A stretch of 64,000 bases of DNA, from NCBI GenBank assembly GCA_965261545.1, contig CBDHDF010000007.1:160001-224000 (forward strand), in the 5' to 3' direction. The notes beneath the pieces were generated by a model. The model did no database searches. It saw only the letters and a list, made by a program, of their open reading frames with translations, and was not told the origin of the DNA. The first letter of the stretch is position 1. The number at the start of each line of letters is the position of its first letter. This DNA is from Bdellovibrionales bacterium (GTDB lineage Bacteria > Bdellovibrionota > Bdellovibrionia > Bdellovibrionales > UBA1609). Positions 47,334-57,139 of this stretch are shown one piece after another. The translations under genes and the position numbers were made by a program.

Positions 47334-50300
47334 TCATTGGGGAGTGACAGTGGCAGATCTAGAGATAAGACTGTTGCTATCAGAGCTATTCACCGCTCGT
47401 ACTTGAAAGGTGTAAAGTGTCCTATTGGTAAGAGAAGTCACCACGTAGTATGTTCCATTTCTTTGATTTGGAGCACTATTTGGAATATCCTCCCAACTTC
47501 CGTACCCTTGTGTACCTGCTGTTTTTTTTCGATACTGATGTTTTATAATGGGAAATCCACCATCACTTGTTGGCGGCTGCCAGGTTAAAAAAGTTCTGCC
47601 ATCTCTAGGGTTTGCAATGAGGTTACTAGGAGATGGGAAGGTTAAATTCTGGGTTGTTTCTGGTGTGACAGTTACACTGGAGGAATCGCTTTCATTGGTG
47701 ATAATATTCACCGCTCGCACTTGAAAGCTGTAGCGTGTTCCGTTGGTGAGAGAAGTCACCAGGTAGCTTATTCCATTGGATTCACTGGGAGCACTCATTG
47801 GAATATCCTCCCAATTTTCGTACTGTTGTGCATTTTCTTCTTTTTTTCGATACTGATGCTTTGTGATGTAATGTCCACCATCACTTATCGGAAGCTGCCA
47901 GGTTAAATAAGCTCCGCCATTTCTGGGGTTTGCGATGAGGTTTCTAGGAGGTGCTAAACTCTGGGTTGTCGCTGGTGTGACAGTTGCGCCGGAGGGACTG
48001 CTTTCATGAGTGCTATTCACTACTCGCACTTGAAAGCTGTAACGGGTCCCATTGGCGAGAGAAGTCACCCAGTGGCGTTGTCCATAGGATTCATTGGGAG
48101 CACTATTTGGAATATTCTTCCAACTTTCGTATTGCTGTGCACCTTCTGCTTTTCTTCGATACTGATGCTTTGTGATGGGAATTCCACCGTCACTTGTTGA
48201 CGGCTGCCAGGTTAAATAAGCTCCTTGATTCCGAGGGTTTGCGATGAGGTTTCTAGGAGATGCTAAACTCTGGATTGTTGCTGGTGTGACAGTTGCAACA
48301 TTGGAGGAACGACTTTCATTGGCGTTATTCACCGCTCGCACTTGGAAGTTATAAATCGTCCCGTTGGCGAGAGAAGTCACCAGGTAGCTTATTCCATTGG
48401 ATTCACTGGGAGTACTCGTTGGAATATTCTTCCAATTTCCGTACTGTTGTGCATTTTCTTCTTTTTTTCGATACTGATGCTTTGTGATGGAAATTCCACC
48501 GTCACTTGTTGACGGCCGCCAGGTTAAATAAGTTCCTTGATTCCGAGGGTTTGCAATGAGATGAGTGGGAGACGAAACAGCTAAACTCTGGGTTGTCGCT
48601 GGTGTGACAGTTGTAACATTGGAGGAACGGTTTTTATTGGCACTATTCACCGCTCGCACTTGGAAGTTATACATCGTCCCGTTGGCGAGAGAAGTCACCA
48701 AGTAGCTTATTCCATTGGATCCACGGGGAGCACTCGTTGGAATATTCTTCCAATTTCCGTACTGATGCTGTGCGCCTGTTGTTTTTTTTCGATACTGATG
48801 TCTTATGATGGAAAATCCACCATCACTTGTTGATGGCTGCCAGGTTAAATAAGCTCCTTGATTCCGAGGGTTTGCGATGAGGTTTCTAGGAGGTGCTAAA
48901 ATCTGAGTTGTCGCTGGTGTGACAGTTGCAACATTGGAGGAACGACTTTCATTGGCGTTCACCGCTCGCACTTGAACATTGTAGCGTGTCCCATTGGTGA
49001 GGGTCACCCAGTGGCGTTGTCCATTGGATTCATTGGGAGCACTATTTGGAATATCCTTCCAACTTTCGTATTGCTGTGCACCTGCTGCTTTTTTTCGATA
49101 CTGATGCTTTAATATGGGAGTTCCACCATCACTTATTGAAGGCTGCCAGGTTAAATAAGTTCCTTGATTCCGAGGGTTTGCGATGAGATGAGTTGGAGAT
49201 GAAAAGGCTAAACTCTGGGTTGTCACTGGGGTAACAGTTACACTGGAGGGATCGCTTTCATTGGCGTTATTCATCGCTCGCACTTGAACATGATAGCGTG
49301 TCCCATTGGTGAGAGAAGTCACCAGGTAGCGTATTCCATTGGATTCATTGGGAGCGCTCATTGGAATATTTTTCCAATTTCCGTATTGCTGTGCACCTGC
49401 TGCTTTTTTTCGATACTGATGTTTTATGATGGAGGATCCACCATCACTTATCGAAGGTTGCCAGGTTAAATAAGCTCCGCCATTTCTGGGGTTTGCGATG
49501 AGGTTTCTAGGAGGTGCTAAACTCTGGGTTGTCGCTGGTGTGACCGTTGTAACATTAGAAGAACGACTTTTATTATTGTCACCATTCATCGCTCGCACTT
49601 GAACATGATAATGTGTTCCATTGGTGAGGGTCACCCAGTGGCGTTGTCCATTGGATTCATTGGGAGCACTATTTGGAATATCCTTCCAACTTTCGTACTG
49701 CTGTGCACCTGCTGCTTTTTTTCGATACTGATGCTTTAATATGGGAGTTCCACCATCACTTATTGAAGGCTGCCAGGTTAAATAAGTTCCGCCATTTCTG
49801 GGGTTTGCGATGAGGTTTCTAGGAGGTGCTAAACTTTGGGTTGTCACTGGGGTAACAGTGACACTGGAGGGATCGCTTTCATTGGCGTTATTCATCGCTC
49901 GCACTTGAACATGGTAGCGTGTCCCATTGGTGAGAGAAGGTACTAGATAGCCTATTCCATTGGATTGATTGGGAGCACTATTTGGAATATCTTTCCAACT
50001 TCCGTACTGTTGTGCACCTGCTGCTTTTTTTCGATACTGATATTTTATAATGGGAATTCCACCGTCACTTATTGAAGACCGCCAGGTTAAATAGGCTTCA
50101 CCATCTCTAGGGTTTGCGATAAGGCTTCTAGGAGACCCTAAAATCTGGATTGTCGTTGGTGTGACAGTTGCAACATTGGTTGAACGATTCTTATTGGCAC
50201 TGTTTACTACTCGCACTTGAAAAGTGCAAGGCTGCCCATTGGTGAGAGGAGCGACAAAGTAGCGCATTCCATTGGATTGATTGGGAGCACTATTTGGAAT

Positions 50301-51194
50301 ATCTTTCCACCTTCCGTACTGTTGTGCACCTGCTGCTTTTTTTCGATACTGATGTTTTATAATGGGAACTCCACCGTCATTTATCGAAGACTGCCATGTT
50401 AAATAGGCTCCTTGGTTCCTAGGGTTTGCCATGAGGTTTCTAGGGAGTGCTAAACTTTGGGTTGTCGCGGGTGTGACAGTTGCAACATTGGAGGAGTGAC
50501 TTTCATTGGCGTTATTCACCGCTCGCACTTGAACATTGTAACGTGTCCCGTTGGTGAGAGAAGGTAGTACTAGATAGCCTATTCCATTGGATTGATTGGG
50601 AGCACTCATTGGAATATCTTCCCAACTTCCGTACTGCTGTACACCTTCTTCTTTTTTTCGATACTGATGCTTTGATATGGGAGTTCCACCGTTATTTACT
50701 GAAGGTTGCCAGGTTAAGTAAGCTCTTTGATTCCTAGGGTTTGCAATGAGGTTTCTAGGGGCTGAGGGGATGGTTGAAATTCGAGAGGTTGCATTTGGTG
50801 TCACTATGGTAGCATTCGAAGGAGTGCTTACAGTGCCAAAAGCATTCTCTCCCCGCACTTGAAAGTTGTAGCGTGTCTCGTTGGTGAGACCCATGACGGT
50901 GAATATTGCTTCATGAATGTCCCCGTAGGAACTGTTGGGAATATCCACCCAGCTTTCGTACACTTCTGATTCTACTTTTTTTCGATATTGATGTTTTGTA
51001 ATACTTTCTTTTTGATTACTAGTGGAAGTTCTCCAAGACAAAGTTGCCTGTCCATCTCCGGGTGCTGCCGTCAAGGTATATTTGATTTTTATCGGCTTCT
51101 CAGAAATGTAAGACTTGTCTTTACTACAACCCAAGCATAAAAAATATAAAAGTATAACAATAGATACACTAAAATTCTTTATTAAATTATTCAT
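47334..51194 (-). CDS. Lipoprotein with 12 fibronectin type III repeats
   Basis: LCLGC lipobox; ~102-aa unit PRNLIANP...YLTW...GG.PI.KHQYR...LTNGTRY.FQVRAVN. Confidence 0.9.
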   Translation of the reverse strand: MNNLIKNFSVSIVILLYFLCLGCSKDKSYISEKPIKIKYTLTAAPGDGQATLSWRTSTSNQKESITKHQYRKKVESEVYESWVDIPNSSYGDIHEAIFTVMGLTNETRYNFQVRGENAFGTVSTPSNATIVTPNATSRISTIPSAPRNLIANPRNQRAYLTWQPSVNNGGTPISKHQYRKKEEGVQQYGSWEDIPMSAPNQSNGIGYLVLPSLTNGTRYNVQVRAVNNANESHSSNVATVTPATTQSLALPRNLMANPRNQGAYLTWQSSINDGGVPIIKHQYRKKAAGAQQYGRWKDIPNSAPNQSNGMRYFVAPLTNGQPCTFQVRVVNSANKNRSTNVATVTPTTIQILGSPRSLIANPRDGEAYLTWRSSISDGGIPIIKYQYRKKAAGAQQYGSWKDIPNSAPNQSNGIGYLVPSLTNGTRYHVQVRAMNNANESDPSSVTVTPVTTQSLAPPRNLIANPRNGGTYLTWQPSISDGGTPILKHQYRKKAAGAQQYESWKDIPNSAPNESNGQRHWVTLTNGTHYHVQVRAMNGDNNKSRSSNVTTVTPATTQSLAPPRNLIANPRNGGAYLTWQPSISDGGSSIIKHQYRKKAAGAQQYGNWKNIPMSAPNESNGIRYLVTSLTNGTRYHVQVRAMNNANESDPSSVTVTPVTTQSLAFSSPTHLIANPRNQGTYLTWQPSISDGGTPILKHQYRKKAAGAQQYESWKDIPNSAPNESNGQRHWVTLTNGTRYNVQVRAVNANESRSSNVATVTPATTQILAPPRNLIANPRNQGAYLTWQPSTSDGGFSIIRHQYRKKTTGAQHQYGNWKNIPTSAPRGSNGISYLVTSLANGTMYNFQVRAVNSANKNRSSNVTTVTPATTQSLAVSSPTHLIANPRNQGTYLTWRPSTSDGGISITKHQYRKKEENAQQYGNWKNIPTSTPSESNGISYLVTSLANGTIYNFQVRAVNNANESRSSNVATVTPATIQSLASPRNLIANPRNQGAYLTWQPSTSDGGIPITKHQYRRKAEGAQQYESWKNIPNSAPNESYGQRHWVTSLANGTRYSFQVRVVNSTHESSPSGATVTPATTQSLAPPRNLIANPRNGGAYLTWQLPISDGGHYITKHQYRKKEENAQQYENWEDIPMSAPSESNGISYLVTSLTNGTRYSFQVRAVNIITNESDSSSVTVTPETTQNLTFPSPSNLIANPRDGRTFLTWQPPTSDGGFPIIKHQYRKKTAGTQGYGSWEDIPNSAPNQRNGTYYVVTSLTNRTLYTFQVRAVNSSDSNSLISRSATVTPQ

Positions 51195-51541
51195 GATTTT
51201 AACTCCTAGCCTATATACCTTTGTAGTAATATCTGAATCATCTTTTTCTCGTTTGTTAAATTTTAAGACTTCTCATCAAAAATCGTCTCAATTTCATTAC
51301 TCGGCCATAAGTTAAGTAAACTTTAGAGCGTGTCCTTTGACTAAGCGCATCCAACCTGGAAAAACCAAAAACAGAACCAAAATCTAGGATGATAAAAAAG
51401 GTTGTTATGACACCAAAAATGGCCGGAAATTATGGAGGTTCACGACTCCCAGTCGCAGATCAAATCATCAAAGGAGTTACGTACCTGAATTCCCCAGCGT
51501 TTTGAAAAAGAAGATTTTTCTCAACTAAAAATTATCGTAAC

Positions 51542-51940
51542 ATTCATGGGGGCGCCTTGCTTCCCCACCCACGCCCATGAATCTTTCTAGGCCCCCACTT
51601 CTTTGCACGAAGCAACTCGGTGGACAGCTTCGCTGGTCTATATAATTGGCCTCTTTTAGTTACTCTGGACTTTTGATGGTATTTTTGTCATGTATGATTC
51701 CGATACAATAAAGGATAAAGCAATAACATTATTGGAAGGTGATAAGATGAGTGGCCGTTGAATAGATTGGTAATTTTAATTCCGTGAAGTAACATGGTCT
51801 TGAGCTTTGGATCGAACCCACGCATGTACCTGCACTCTGAGTGTATGGACGTATAGTAAGTTGACCTATTTTCGCTTTAGAATTTATGGCAAAATCCCAA
51901 GGCTCTAGTTTTATCACCTTCTTTTTTTCTAACAGAAAGG
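51542..51940 (+). ncRNA. Candidate bridge RNA in the IS110 left non-coding end
   Basis: ~400-nt non-coding region upstream of the recombinase; internal loop holding TGAATAG and GTAAC, which match the IS66 TIR; transcript boundaries unknown. Confidence 0.6.
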
Positions 51941-51949
51941 AGGAGTCAT

Positions 51950-53150
51950 GTGGATATTATTTATAGTTCTGTTTGTGGAATAGATGTTCATCAACATATG
52001 TTGATGTGTACGATTGTCAAAGTGGAAGACGGTAAGAAGAAGTTTTTCACAAAAGAGTTCAAGAATTTTCCAAAAAATTTTCCTAGAATGCGCTCTTGGA
52101 TGAAGCCACATAAGGTTGAGAGAGTTCTTTTTGAGAGCACAGGGATTTATTGGAATTCTTTATACGATGATTTGACAGAAAAAGGTTATGAAGTAGATGT
52201 TATCAATGCCTTTCATGTCAAAAATATTACTGGTAAAAAAACTGACGTGTTGGATAGCCAGTGGATTGCAGAGCTTGGTGCTTGTGGTCTTCTAAGAGCT
52301 AGCTTCATTCCTCCACGTGAGATTCGTTCTATTAGACTTTTGGCTCGTTATCGTACAAAAACGATCCGCCAAATATCTTCGGAACAAAATCGTATGTATA
52401 AGGTTCTTGAATATTCAGGCATTCGTTTAACCTATGCAATGTCTAAAGCTGACTGCGTATCTGGTATGGCCATGATTCGTGCCATAGCTAATGGAGAGAG
52501 ATCAGTTTCTAAATTGATGTCTCTTGCCAGAGGGTCTTTACGTCAAAAGACCGAAGAATTTTCTTACGCCCTGTCGGGAAAGATGACGGAAGAAAATCGT
52601 TTTGTTCTTCAACGCATTCTTGATCGAATAGATTTTTTGAAAAAAGAATGCTCTCAAATTGAAGAAGAACTTTTCATTCGTATGAAACCCTATGAAAGGC
52701 AGTGGCATCTACTCCAGACTATACCTGGAATTGACGAATTAAGTGCAGCGCTTTTGATTGCAGAAATAGGAGGCAATGTGAAGTCTTTTAAAAATAAAGG
52801 AAATTTTTGCTCCTGGATGGGGATTTGCCCATCCAATAATGAGAGCGCAGGAAAAAAAGTCTTCACGAACGAGGAAAGCGAACACATATGTGAAATCGTT
52901 GGTATGTGAGATGGCCAATAGTGCTATTAAGACGAATTCACAATTCAAAGGCAAATACCAATCACTTGTTATAAGGCGTGGGCACAAGAGATCAGTGATT
53001 GCCGTTGGTCACAAAATGATGGGAGTTGTTTATTCAGTCATAAGTAATGACACCCCCTACAAAGACCCTGGAATTGACTATGAAAAGCTCATGGTGAAAA
53101 AAAATGCACCAAGGTGGATTAGAGCGTTAAAAAAGTATGATTTCATGTAA
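51950..53150 (+). pseudogene. IS110 recombinase, frameshifted at an A7 run (52852-52858)
   Basis: GIDVHQ, FESTG, KTDVLDS, IPGID, PSNNESAG; C-terminus SSRTRKAN is in another frame. Confidence 0.85.
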
Positions 53151-53238
53151 TGTAGGATGATTTAAAAACTCGGACATTTGAAAAAATTCGAAGAACGGAT
53201 AGTGGATTCGTGCGTCCAAACTACCCCGGAGATTCATA

Positions 53239-54953
53239 GTAACTATTCAGGGTGTGCCGCATTAATTCGAACAATTTTTTTAAAAAAAGTATAAAAATTC
53301 TTGACAAGTTTTTGAAGCAAACGACCTCTTTCATTTGTTCTTTATCGAATATGTTCCTGCATATGCCTTAAACTCTCTGAGAGCCATAGTATTGAAAGAT
53401 TGTGAAACATAGGTCGCGGGGGGCACTTCTCATTCCTTTTGCTTCTTAGAACGAATCCTAGTGCATTTTTTTTAATGAAAAAAAGGCATGTTAATATTTT
53501 CATAAGGTAAGTATGAAAATAGAAAATATTGACGTGTCTTCAGCCATAAATAAAATCAGGAAGCTTCTTAAGAAAGAGAAGTCCCTTTCTCCCGCTTTTA
53601 TTGTGGCCATTGAGTTGTTGATCAAAATCATCACTATTCTAGTAAATCAAAAAAAATTAAATAGTCAAAACAGTAGTATTGCCCCTTCTCAAGATCCGAA
53701 TGGCCCTAAAAAGAAACCTAAGGAAGAAACTGGTAAGAAGCCAGGAGGACAACCCGGACACGAAGGAGCTACTTTAAAACCCGTGGATACTCCAGACAAG
53801 GTGGAGTTCATTTCTATTAATAAAGAGGAACTTCCTCCAGGTGATTACATTTCTTCTGGAGTTGAAAAGCGTCAAGTATTTGAGGTAGACCTTTCTGTGC
53901 ATGTCACGGAGTATCAAGGAGAAATCCTCGAAGACCAAGATGGGAATCAGTGGGTTGCAGGTTTTCCAGAAGGAATCAATAACCCAACTCAATATGGCCC
54001 TTCTGTGAAAGCTCACTCAGTTTATATGTCCCAGTTTCAGTTAATCCCTCATCTTCGAGTCGCAAGTTACTTTAATCAATGGGGTCTATCGCTTGCTGGA
54101 TCTACGGTACACAATTTTAACAAATCTGCCTTTGAGGCTCTGGAAGCTTTTGAGGAGTGGGCAAAGGAAACTCTTCTGAACTCACCTTTGATTCATGCTG
54201 ACGAAACTGGAGTGAATGTTAATGGGAAGAGGCTGTGGTTTCACCTCTTGTCCAATGATACTGTGGTTCTCTATCAGGTGGACGAAAAAAGAGGCGCAGA
54301 GGCTATGGATCGCATGGGAATTCTTCCAAAATACACAGGGATTGTTTGTCATGACCATTGGAAACCTTATTATACATATACTTCCTGCATTCATGCCCTT
54401 TGCAATGCGCACCATTTAAGGGAGCTTCAAAGAGCTTGGGAGCAAGATGATCAAAAATGGGCAAAAGAAATGAAGTCTCTTTTAGAGACAATAAACAAAG
54501 AGGTGCACGATACGCAGAACCAATGCCTTTCACAAGACCGAATTGAATATTACAAAGAGAAATATCGAAATATTCTCTTCGAAGGGGAAAAGGAATCTCC
54601 ATTAATGGAGAGGACAGAGAAAAAAAAGAAGGGAAAGGTTAAACAATCCAAATCTAGAAATTTACTAGATCGACTGAGAAACTTTGAAGATGATACCTTG
54701 CTATTTATGAAGGACCCCATAGTTCCATTTACGAATAATATAGCAGAAAATGATCTGAGAATGACCAAAGTTCAGCAGAAAATATCTGGGTGCTTTCGTT
54801 CGTTGATGGGAGCCAAGACATTTTGTAGAAACCGAAGCTTTCTCCTGACTTGCCAGAAAAATGGCATAGAACCTAAAGATGCTCTAAATATGCTATTTCA
54901 AGGAAAACTTCCCTCATTTATGACTCGAATTCGCCCACCCCCTGAATAGTTAC
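53239..54953 (+). mobile_element. IS66-family element (TnpC only, ISBst12-like)
   Basis: TIRs GTAACTATTCAGGGTGTG and CACCCCCTGAATAGTTAC; 8-bp TSD AAATTATC displaced to 51529-51536 and 56662-56669. Confidence 0.92.
53513..54949 (+). CDS. IS66 transposase TnpC
   Basis: NSQNSSIAPSQD, PGGQPGH, HADETG, CNAHHLREL, PFTNNIAENDLR, KISGCFRS. Confidence 0.95.
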   Translation: MKIENIDVSSAINKIRKLLKKEKSLSPAFIVAIELLIKIITILVNQKKLNSQNSSIAPSQDPNGPKKKPKEETGKKPGGQPGHEGATLKPVDTPDKVEFISINKEELPPGDYISSGVEKRQVFEVDLSVHVTEYQGEILEDQDGNQWVAGFPEGINNPTQYGPSVKAHSVYMSQFQLIPHLRVASYFNQWGLSLAGSTVHNFNKSAFEALEAFEEWAKETLLNSPLIHADETGVNVNGKRLWFHLLSNDTVVLYQVDEKRGAEAMDRMGILPKYTGIVCHDHWKPYYTYTSCIHALCNAHHLRELQRAWEQDDQKWAKEMKSLLETINKEVHDTQNQCLSQDRIEYYKEKYRNILFEGEKESPLMERTEKKKKGKVKQSKSRNLLDRLRNFEDDTLLFMKDPIVPFTNNIAENDLRMTKVQQKISGCFRSLMGAKTFCRNRSFLLTCQKNGIEPKDALNMLFQGKLPSFMTRIRPPPE

Positions 54954-56661
54954 TATGAATCTCCGGGGTAGTTTGGACGCACGAATCCACTATCCGTTCT
55001 TCGAATTTTTTCAAATGTCCGAGTTTTTAAATCATCCTACATTACATGAAATCATACTTTTTTAACGCTCTAATCCACCTTGGTGCATTTTTTTTCACCA
55101 TGAGCTTTTCATAGTCAATTCCAGGGTCTTTGTAGGGGGTGTCATTACTTATGACTGAATAAACAACTCCCATCATTTTGTGACCAACGGCAATCACTGA
55201 TCTCTTGTGCCCACGCCTTATAACAAGTGATTGGTATTTGCCTTTGAATTGTGAATTCGTCTTAATAGCACTATTGGCCATCTCACATACCAACGATTTC
55301 ACATATGTGTTCGCTTTCCTCGTTCGTGAAGACTTTTTTTTCCTGCGCTCTCATTATTGGATGGGCAAATCCCCATCCAGGAGCAAAAATTTCCTTTATT
55401 TTTAAAAGACTTCACATTGCCTCCTATTTCTGCAATCAAAAGCGCTGCACTTAATTCGTCAATTCCAGGTATAGTCTGGAGTAGATGCCACTGCCTTTCA
55501 TAGGGTTTCATACGAATGAAAAGTTCTTCTTCAATTTGAGAGCATTCTTTTTTCAAAAAATCTATTCGATCAAGAATGCGTTGAAGAACAAAACAATTTT
55601 CTTCCGTCATCTTTCCCGACAGGGCGTAAGAAAATTCTTCGGTCTTTTGACGTAAAGACCCTCTGGCAAGAGACATCAATTTAGAAACTGATCTCTCTCC
55701 ATTAGCTATGGCACGAATCATGGCCATACCAGATACGCAGTCAGCTTTAGACATTGCATAGGTTAAACGAATGCCTGAATATTCAAGAACCTTATACATA
55801 CGATTTTGTTCCGAAGATATTTGGCGGATCGTTTTTGTACGATAACGAGCCAAAAGTCTAATAGAACGAATCTCACGTGGAGGAATGAAGCTAGCTCTTA
55901 GAAGACCACAAGCACCAAGCTCTGCAATCCACTGGCTATCCAACACGTCAGTTTTTTTACCAGTAATATTTTTGACATGAAAGGCATTGATAACATCTAC
56001 TTCATAACCTTTTTCTGTCAAATCATCGTATAAAGAATTCCAATAAATCCATCCCTGTGCTCTCAAAAAGAACTCTCTCAACCTTATGTGGCTTCATCCA
56101 AGAGCGCATTCTAGGAAAATTTTTTGGAAAATTCTTGAACTCTTTTGTGAAAAACTTCTTCTTACCGTCTTCCACTTTGACAATCGTACACATCAACATA
56201 TGTTGATGAACATCTATTCCACAAACAGAACTATAAATAATATCCACATGACTCCTCCTTTCTGTTAGAAAAAAAGAAGGTGATAAAACTAGAGCCTTGG
56301 GATTTTGCCATAAATTCTAAAGCGAAAATAGGTCAACTTACTATACGTCCATACACTCAGAGTGCAGGTACATGCGTGGGTTCGATCCAAAGCTCAAGAC
56401 CATGTTACTTCACGGAATTAAAATTACCAATCTATTCAACGGCCACTCATCTTATCACCTTCCAATAATGTTATTGCTTTATCCTTTATTGTATCGGAAT
56501 CATACATGACAAAAATACCATCAAAAGTCCAGAGTAACTAAAAGAGGCCAATTATATAGACCAGCGAAGCTGTCCACCGAGTTGCTTCGTGCAAAGAAGT
56601 GGGGGCCTAGATAAGATTCATGGGCGTGGGTGGGGAAGCAAGGCGCCCCCATGAATGTTAC
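54954..56661 (-). mobile_element. IS110-family element, copy B, inserted at the right TIR of IS66
   Basis: Reverse complement of copy A. Confidence 0.9.
55042..56247 (-). pseudogene. IS110 recombinase, copy B, with two frameshifts
   Basis: 4-bp GGAT duplication near 56050 and an A8 run near 55334-55341. Confidence 0.85.
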
Positions 56662-57139
56662 AAATTATCAAGAATAAAATATTATCAAAGTGGAATTATT
56701 CAATAGTTCCATCCTAAATTGAATTGTGAATTGTTCAACTTATTTTGACACACCTCCTTAGTTTTGGACCTAGTTCAAACTCTGGGGAATTCAATTACGT
56801 AACAAAGCAAGTTTCATATATAAATATACAAATGAGACAAGCACAAGAGACGTGATCTTTATTGAGACAAAATCAATTTTTACTAGACTTTGGTAGAATC
56901 CCTTAGTATCCTTAAAATTAAGAAGCAGCATGATAAAGATTAAGAAATATATATAAGAATACGAAACCAATAAGAATTACGAAATAAAATTAAAGACTCC
57001 ATGGACCGAAGGCTTTGACGAGTGGCCTAAGGGTCCTAGCAAAAGAAGAGAAGCGGCACAAGGAAGTGCTAAAGTAGAACGTATATGCAAAAGGAGGTGG
57101 CACGAAAAAATAAAGCTAACTTCGGGCAATTCCTTTCTT

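What the first reader, a model, noticed from the sequence alone, without database searches (positions are those of the whole stretch)
51750..51865. Candidate bridge-RNA guide loops matching the IS66 end and the element's own junction
Seen: GGCCGT (51753-58) pairs with ATGGTC (51794-99), enclosing TGAATAG (51759-65), an inner hairpin ATTGG/TTAAT, and GTAAC (51789-93). These two segments match opposite strands of the target GTAACTATTCA. Further on, TGAGTGT (51838-44, one G-T wobble versus TGAATGT) and ATAGTAA (51853-59) match opposite strands of the predicted donor junction ATAGTAACATTCA. Known: IS110 bridge RNAs have a target-binding loop followed by a donor-binding loop, each with two guides. 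Inference: this is the RNA specifying IS66 TIR targeting. The matches are short, the donor-loop stems are weak, and AGTAACAT also matches the donor.
Basis: inference. Interest (0 to 1): 0.75.

Follow-up and report, generated by a model that had tools for sequence, protein, structure and literature searches.

The report
Bridge RNA reading folded donor DNA
This is the guide RNA of a jumping gene that repeatedly inserts into the ends of another jumping gene, and it seems to recognise its own DNA as one folded-back strand rather than as the ordinary double helix used by the textbook system.

Summary
Real IS110 bridge-RNA region (about 51734-51922; 37 model matches in the genome). The element occupies 15 of 33 perfect IS66-type ends and 0 of 23 one-mismatch ends. 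The fourth guide (51838-44) fails: it lies in an optional hairpin (absent in 23 of 56 homologues) and does not covary. The homologous 5' donor strand is 51816-23, identical in the same sense to the left end at 51567-74 (covariation z 9.2; held-out z 5.2). Both donor guides therefore pair with the same DNA strand. A covarying left-end hairpin, sub-terminal repeats and fixed spacings suggest that the joined ends fold back on one strand into a duplex-like 13-14-nt donor. Guide order is reversed versus IS621 although the RNA is upstream. The scan noted this element (same genome) and a reversed order (another genome) before; neither listing mentions the same-strand donor match. Expression and activity are untested. 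New variant of a known kind.

The parts
51529..51536 (.). 8-bp target-site duplication of the IS66 element, left copy
   Evidence: identical to 56662-69; 3 of 3 uncapped full-length IS66 copies have 8-bp duplications
51541..53242 (+). IS110-family element, copy 1 (core dinucleotide AA at 51539-40 and 53241-42)
   Evidence: ends from 51 left-end and 35 right-end probe matches in the genome and tandem junctions
51547..51567 (.). Left-end DNA hairpin (arms 51547-52 and 51562-67; 5 of 6 Watson-Crick here)
   Evidence: arms covary in homologues, 33 of 46 at >=5/6, z 12.8
51567..51574 (+). Left-end segment identical in the same sense to the 5' donor-loop strand; proposed binding site on the bottom strand
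51579..51584 (+). Left sub-terminal inverted repeat
   Evidence: complementary to 53230-35; covaries in 43 homologues, z 8.5, median perfect length 6 bp
51734..51922 (+). Predicted bridge RNA, closed by a basal stem (about 51734-45 with 51910-22)
   Evidence: fold; model match 51749-51866 (the model includes this sequence); expression not shown
51753..51799 (+). Target-binding loop: outer stem 51753-56/51796-99, inner hairpin 51768-73/51780-84
   Evidence: compensatory changes in 10 of 13 predicted pairs over 56 sequences
51759..51765 (+). [quoted passage not shown]
   Evidence: 7/7 at 16 of 30 non-tandem right junctions; homologues z 5.9, held-out only z 1.5
51786..51794 (+). 3' target guide (51786-92, ending in the core) and handshake dinucleotide (51793-94)
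   Evidence: 33 of 66 homologues >=7/9 versus 2.8% non-cognate; handshake 94% and 90% of 52; in this genome only the last 4 positions match flanks
51816..51823 (+). 5' donor-loop strand (true positional equivalent of the left donor guide)
51825..51851 (+).
   Evidence: hairpin region <=9 nt in 23 of 56 sequences; no covariation
51853..51861 (+). 3' donor guide (51853-59) and handshake dinucleotide (51860-61)
   Evidence: 58 of 63 homologues >=6/7 versus 7.3%; 14 of 14 held-out
51950..53150 (+). IS110 recombinase gene; this copy is out of frame at a poly-A run near 52851
   Evidence: PF01548 and PF02371; intact copy scores NF033542 at 245.5 bits, cut-off 140; D12, E62, D99, D102, S299
53230..53242 (+). 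Right sub-terminal repeat (53230-35) and terminal 7 nt with core (53236-42)
53239..54953 (+). IS66-family element (1715 bp; single transposase 53513-54949), both ends occupied by IS110
   Evidence: PF03050, NF033517 285 bits, cut-off 180
54950..56657 (-). IS110 element, copy 2 (RNA copy 56331-56448); out of frame at two places
56662..56669 (.). 8-bp target-site duplication, right copy

Best explanation
The region encodes the bridge RNA of a 400-aa IS110 recombinase. SHOWN by sequence and covariation: the target loop reads an 11-bp site, which here is the first 11 bp of IS66-type ends; the recombining strand is the bottom strand (core AA/AG on top = TT/CT on the bottom), so the guide order is the reverse of IS621; both donor-loop strands are complementary to that same bottom strand, one at the right-end terminus and one about 23-35 nt inside the left end. 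INFERRED: after the ends are joined in a circle, the bottom strand folds on itself (single-stranded circle or cruciform arm). The small left-end hairpin stands in for the left flanking duplex, the returning arm is the surrogate 'opposite strand' held by the 5' donor guide, and the two sub-terminal repeats pair as the right flanking duplex, leaving 13-14 nt (6-7 + 2 + 5) where IS621 has a 14-nt donor. INFERRED, weaker: only one strand exchange can then be productive and replication finishes the insertion (copy-in). IS66 ends serve as a multi-copy, gene-free landing site.
For: Target loop; IS621-polarity controls null (z -0.7 and 0.1). Occupancy 15 of 33 perfect versus 0 of 23 one-mismatch ends (Fisher P 1e-4, 8e-4 if one site is reassigned); the 12 full-length capped ends show 12 different allele/neighbour combinations. 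Same-strand donor match: 36 of 47 at >=6/8 versus 34% non-cognate, z 9.2; unique guides 19 of 25, z 7.0; five controls null; held-out 10 of 14, z 5.2, canonical geometry 0 of 14; one per 60%-identity cluster 8 of 12, z 3.4; nearest-relative swap 12 better, 10 tied, 2 worse. Geometry: hairpin end to repeat 11-12 nt in 30 of 33, match ends 4-5 nt before the repeat in 34 of 35, while hairpin length varies 14-23 nt; junction fold mean z -2.0 versus -0.1 for coding controls, repeats paired in 31 of 43 folds. CazIS110-1 integrates a single-stranded circle of one strand only and IS621 excises mainly one strand (10.1101/2025.10.25.684509, 10.64898/2026.08.31.748434).
Against: No expression or activity data. 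The 5' donor strand is partly conserved across the clade, so non-cognate matches are common (34%) and 11 of 47 cognate pairs score below 6/8. Only 12 clusters remain at 60% identity and too few at 55%. Ends could be placed in only 14 of 28 held-out loci. In this element the small hairpin is weak and the minimum-energy fold pairs part of the region the guide must open. In ISPpu9, which has AG ends and a left-end palindrome, mutating the palindrome did not stop circle formation (PMC12288879; integration not tested, clade membership not tested here). CazIS110-1 prefers double-stranded donors about 20-fold at one junction. The 5' target guide matches homologue flanks only loosely (9 of 50 at >=5/7; held-out 2 of 13).
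Confidence: 0.6

Rival explanations
1. Bridge RNA with reversed polarity, but the internal same-strand match acts without the full fold-back: the guide invades duplex DNA at a distant left-end site, or acts only in end recognition during excision, and the hairpin and repeats are protein-binding sites.
For: Explains the covariation equally; sub-terminal repeats are known duplex features of IS1111 ends; ISPpu9 palindrome dispensable for circles.
Against: Does not explain why spacings on both sides stay fixed while hairpin length varies, nor why polarity and length reproduce the IS621 donor only after folding.
Confidence: 0.25
2. One reading: canonical four-guide recognition of a duplex junction with 51838-44 as the second donor guide.
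For: 6 of 7 match with one wobble; conforms to the IS621 scheme.
Against: Chance 6.7%; homologues 2 of 32 (z 0.8) in that hairpin and 6 of 51 (z 0.1) anywhere in the loop; region missing in 23 of 56; it is base-paired within the RNA.
Confidence: 0.05
3. The association with IS66 ends comes mostly from hitchhiking: one early insertion, then spread by the IS66 transposase, which may accept the IS110 left end as a substitute end.
For: After insertion the new outer end resembles the IS66 end (11 of 16 positions, by eye); positions -7 to -5 of the 3' target guide match flanks only at background (9, 9, 8 of 41) whereas homologues match at 60-87%; palindromic scars with 8-bp duplications exist.
Against: Both IS66 ends, two other elements' ends and three non-IS66 sites carry the same motif; 12 of 12 capped ends differ in allele combination.
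Confidence: 0.1

Closest known systems
IS621 and ISCro4/IS622 bridge recombinases (PMC11208160, PMC11208158, 10.1101/2025.05.14.653916)
   Same: DEDD plus serine recombinase, upstream RNA with target loop then donor loop, 2-nt core read as CT/TT on the recombining strand, handshake dinucleotides, 8-nt 5' donor strand.
   Different: Distant protein (E 2.7e-15 and 1.5e-13), 400 versus about 330 aa; recombining strand antisense to RNA and gene; donor guides on one strand; 6-bp median sub-terminal repeats placed about 40 nt apart across the junction instead of 2-3 bp flanking a 14-nt donor.
IS1111-group seekRNA elements (ISEc11, ISKpn4, ISPa11; PMC11187229) and IS4321/IS5075
   Same: Top-strand match precedes bottom-strand match; sub-terminal repeats; IS4321/IS5075 target terminal repeats of Tn21-family transposons (seen only as a reference title).
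   Different: RNA here is upstream, not downstream; protein 400 aa versus 330-350; repeats asymmetric; target is an IS66 end.
ISPpu9 of Pseudomonas putida (PMC12288879)
   Same: AG at both ends, 43-bp left box with a palindrome, 16-bp right box, upstream RNA, no junction promoter, short non-autonomous derivatives. By eye from supplementary Tables S2, S4, S5: 6 nt, then hairpin, 13 nt, then a 6-bp repeat complementary to the right box 5 nt before the core.
   Different: Targets REP sequences; guides and the end-to-end repeat were not described in the sections read; relatedness to this protein was not tested; its left box has a second possible hairpin.
CazIS110-1 (10.1101/2025.10.25.684509)
   Same: High copy number; copy-out and one-strand integration would suit the model.
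   Different: No hairpin or fold-back donor in the passages searched; clade membership not tested.
Integron attC sites (recalled, no call)
   Same: Recombination of one folded strand with a duplex site, finished by replication.
   Different: Tyrosine recombinase with protein-only recognition; here RNA-guided and the folded site is the element's own junction.

Membership tests
IS110 family (bridge recombinases) | PF01548 plus PF02371 with DEDD and catalytic serine | tested here: met
IS110 family (bridge recombinases) | Insertion at a short shared core without a long duplication, at a specific site | tested here: met
IS110 family (bridge recombinases) | Structured non-coding RNA with target loop whose guides covary with targets | tested here: met
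IS110 family (bridge recombinases) | RNA expressed and bound by the recombinase; circular intermediate | not testable with these tools
   needs small-RNA sequencing and PCR; tandem junctions are indirect
IS621-type bridge RNA | 5' guide pairs the bottom strand left of the core, 3' guide the top strand right of it (gene orientation) | tested here: not met
   controls z -0.7 and 0.1; reverse polarity strongly supported
IS621-type bridge RNA | Two donor guides on opposite strands of a contiguous 14-bp junction | tested here: not met
IS621-type bridge RNA | Handshake dinucleotides | tested here: met
   target-loop handshake 94%/90% of 52, 13 of 14 held-out; donor-loop handshake weaker (57% versus 41%)
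IS621-type bridge RNA | Promoter formed at the circle junction | not tested
   only the linear 51400-52000 stretch was scanned: 0 sites
IS1111 group | Non-coding RNA downstream of the gene | tested here: not met
   RNA lies upstream
IS1111 group | Sub-terminal inverted repeats of 7-17 bp | tested here: inconclusive
   perfect length 3-10 bp, median 6, asymmetric position
IS1111 group | Top-strand match 5' of bottom-strand match | tested here: met
IS66 family (the target element) | IS66 transposase, terminal inverted repeats, 8-bp duplication | tested here: met

The most novel reading that the evidence does not exclude
A widespread clade of about 400-aa IS110 recombinases (relatives in Actinomycetota, Bacillota and Pseudomonadota plasmids) recognises its donor as a folded single strand: both donor guides read one strand, which builds a duplex mimic from a hairpin and two sub-terminal repeats, and integrates by one strand exchange. 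This would be an RNA-guided counterpart of integron cassette insertion and a natural programmable single-stranded-DNA integrase; this member uses it to colonise IS66 ends.
Probability: 0.5. Interest if true: 0.85.

Novelty: new variant of a known kind. Interest (0 to 1): 0.7.

Why it matters
Whether IS110 elements move through single- or double-stranded circles, and how one-strand integration is completed, is disputed in the papers read. This clade offers a direct test, since the model names the exact bases whose pairing must matter. It predicts that pipelines which rebuild donors as short duplexes around the core will miss one donor guide in these elements, and it suggests a meaning for the unexplained left-end palindrome of ISPpu9. 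If right, it gives a compact programmable enzyme that accepts single-stranded donors. Targeting IS66 ends adds a case of one mobile element living on another.

Tried and rejected
Rfam: nothing relevant, one match at E 0.6. Promoter scan of 51400-52000: 0 sites, shuffles mean 1.7. Sequencing runs: no RNA holder listed. The genome-contig scan with the single protein gave only 3 distant loci; 2 of 300 other genomes of the phylum had a match at 34-35%, and those two loci gave no RNA-model match. Structure-aware alignment was unavailable; regular-expression anchoring was too noisy and was replaced by an alignment. One search used a wrong offset for this element's own right flank; corrected. One search contained one mis-entered pair (8 of 56 paired), which lowers its totals; corrected for the model. 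One search stopped after 17 folds; repeated. Rejected: 51838-44 as guide; canonical left donor guide at any of 6 offsets in either sense; IS621 polarity; a fold-back target for the 5' target guide (four tests null); a third RNA segment pairing with both the guide and the left-end segment (z 0.5 and 0.0); clonal spread of one IS110-IS66 composite. ISPpu9 was compared by eye only, so its fit is open. Rows dropped before counts: of 113 loci, 76 were aligned (metagenome set plus this element and two viral loci, >=170 nt upstream, near-duplicates removed), 66 passed the anchor check, 12 needed a 4-nt register correction set by the core rule, 52 had a left end, 58 a right end, 47 a left repeat.

Full report
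Setting. The window holds two inverted copies of an IS110-family element (51541-53242 and 54950-56657), one in each end of a 1715-bp IS66 element, the whole flanked by an 8-bp duplication. The genome (4.3 Mb, 11 contigs) has 51 left-end and 35 right-end probe matches and 37 matches to the RNA model. Of 35 copies examined at a poly-A run in the gene, 18 have 7 A, 3 have 8 A and 14 have 9 A; a 9-A copy gives an open 400-aa frame with D12, E62, D99, D102 and S299. Both window copies are out of frame.

Observation. The two target-side matches together arose in 0 of 3000 shuffles. Of 42 right-end junctions in the genome, 12 are tandem right-end/left-end joints, giving the donor junction directly; 15 sit in perfect IS66-type ends, 7 inside the element and 8 elsewhere. 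Among the 30 non-tandem junctions 16 match the 5' target guide 7/7, and 10 of 19 distinct flanks match at 5/7 or better against a background of 1.3%. Perfect 11-bp ends are occupied in 15 of 33 cases, ends of two one-mismatch classes in 0 of 23; a further one-mismatch site is empty and one two-mismatch end carries a short derivative. The 12 full-length capped ends show 12 different allele/neighbour combinations, arguing for repeated insertion. Against a long guide here: positions -7 to -5 of the 3' target guide match left flanks only 9, 9 and 8 times in 41, versus 35-36 for the last four positions (the 41 include a few spurious pattern hits).

Homologues. Relatives of 35-48% identity were fetched; 76 upstream regions were aligned and 66 passed an anchor check. 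The window sequence aligns through both loops and satisfies the consensus pairs; 10 of 13 predicted pairs show compensatory change over 56 sequences and 0 of 500 shuffles reached the observed pairing (relatedness inflates this). The 3' target guide equals the left flank plus core (33 of 66 at >=7/9 versus 2.8% non-cognate); the next two bases equal the first two left-end bases (94% and 90% of 52 versus 34-35%; not used to place the ends), the handshake described for IS621 (PMC11208158, passages). The 3' donor guide equals the last 7 nt of the right end (58 of 63 versus 7.3%). The 5' target guide is complementary to the right flank but loosely (9 of 50 at >=5/7, z 5.9; 15 of 46, z 7.6 with a sliding window; held-out 2 of 13, z 1.5). 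Controls in IS621 polarity were null. Cores are AA or AG on the gene strand, that is TT or CT on the other, matching the IS621 core with its near-invariant second T. The order, top-strand match first, is the one reported for IS1111-group RNAs and the reverse of the upstream-RNA element ISEc21 (PMC11187229, passages) and of IS621 (PMC11208160, parts 1, 2, 5 and passages).

The fourth guide. 51838-44 lies in a hairpin between the arms of the donor-loop inner stem; that stretch is 9 nt or shorter in 23 of 56 sequences. A reverse complement of the left-end start occurs there in 2 of 32 homologues (z 0.8) and anywhere in the loop in 6 of 51 (z 0.1); in this element such a match arises in 6.7% of shuffles. 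By position the 5' donor strand is 51816-23. It shows no canonical match at any offset but is identical in the same sense to 51567-74, just before the left sub-terminal repeat. In homologues 36 of 47 match at >=6/8 (34% non-cognate; z 9.2), unique guides 19 of 25 (z 7.0), with position-wise covariation along one diagonal and five null controls. In loci not used for the model, ends could be placed without the guides in 14 of 28; there the match held in 10 of 14 (z 5.2), the canonical geometry in 0 of 14, the 3' donor guide in 14 of 14, the handshake in 13 of 14. One locus per 60%-identity cluster gave 8 of 12 (z 3.4, 23 of 20000 permutations); swapping in the nearest relative's end was worse in 12, tied in 10, better in 2. 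Kin are not independent, so the z values overstate.

Geometry. The left end is 6-7 nt, a hairpin with covarying arms (33 of 46; z 12.8) of variable length (14-23 nt), then 11-12 nt (30 of 33) holding the match, then a repeat complementary to one that starts 7 nt from the right-end terminus (z 8.5 over 43). Rebuilt junctions fold better than shuffles (mean z -2.0; 20 of 43 below -2) while coding controls do not (-0.1; 2 of 43), and the repeats pair in 31 of 43 folds. If the bottom strand folds back, the returning arm has the polarity of the strand that the left donor guide binds in IS621, and the unpaired span is 13-14 nt. This is inference; no experiment here shows the fold.

Mechanism. Shown by sequence: target site, core, three guides, handshake, reversed polarity, same-strand donor match. 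Inferred: RNA expression, a folded single-stranded or cruciform donor, single-strand exchange and replicative completion. Support from print: single-stranded excision products and one-strand integration in other IS110 elements (10.1101/2025.10.25.684509, part 1 and passages; 10.64898/2026.08.31.748434, part 1). Against: double-stranded donors were preferred there at one junction (also stated in 10.64898/2026.08.14.744561, passages), IS621 structures use duplex substrates (PMC13626964, passages), and the ISPpu9 left-end palindrome was dispensable for circle formation (PMC12288879, discussion, two results parts, passages and supplement parts), which fits a role in integration only but equally no role.

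Novelty. Searches found no paper describing IS66-end targeting by IS110 or a same-strand, fold-back donor; passages of 10.64898/2026.03.19.712850 (target stem-loop, opposite-strand donor guides), 10.1101/2025.05.14.653916 and 10.64898/2026.10.21.760802 (passages and section 2.4) showed none either. Figures and bioRxiv supplements were not visible and may bear on this, and most subscription journals are not searched. Targeting another element's terminal repeat has precedent (IS4321/IS5075, title only). Earlier scan notes: e1-3589645 (same element, called ordinary) and e1-7871514 (reversed order in another genome); both were seen after my own reading was formed.

Noticed in passing
window 47334-51194 (-): 1286-aa protein made of about 12 fibronectin type III repeats, directly beside the insertion.
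   Followed up: no
window near 52851; proteins: Poly-A run occurs as 7, 8 or 9 A in the genome, and many homologues end at 314-317 aa at the same motif: a slippage or programmed-frameshift hotspot, or assembly error.
   Followed up: partly
window 51619-51683: A 65-nt piece of the left end is about 95% identical to one end region of a different repeat with about 50 matches in the genome; it lengthens this left end relative to homologues.
   Followed up: partly
G000:C2 near 618600; C6 near 99930: Palindromic remnants of about 51 bp made of two left-end tips and flanked by 8-bp duplications; probably deletion scars of an IS66 capped at both ends.
   Followed up: partly
G000:C11 near 725860; C6 near 3550; C2 near 233600: Short non-autonomous derivatives (about 100 bp) with both ends, no RNA, and a changed but still complementary pair of sub-terminal repeats; one sits in a two-mismatch IS66-type end.
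   Followed up: partly
right-end junctions listed: 5 of 30 non-tandem junctions ignore the target guide and start with the first donor-loop handshake base (4 with both); one lies at the DNA that encodes the 3' donor guide itself. Resembles half-match recombination.
   Followed up: partly
window 51537-51552 versus 53239-53254: After insertion the new outer end resembles the IS66 end it split (11 of 16 positions by eye), so the composite might remain mobile.
   Followed up: partly
G000:C7 226700-232600: Three tandem units of the IS110 element plus about 340 bp of host DNA.
   Followed up: no
G000:C11 69171-69247: An 87%-identical 77-nt fragment of the RNA region inside an unrelated gene.
   Followed up: partly
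L024, L055: Some homologues have much longer end-to-end inverted repeats (about 17-20 bp).
   Followed up: no
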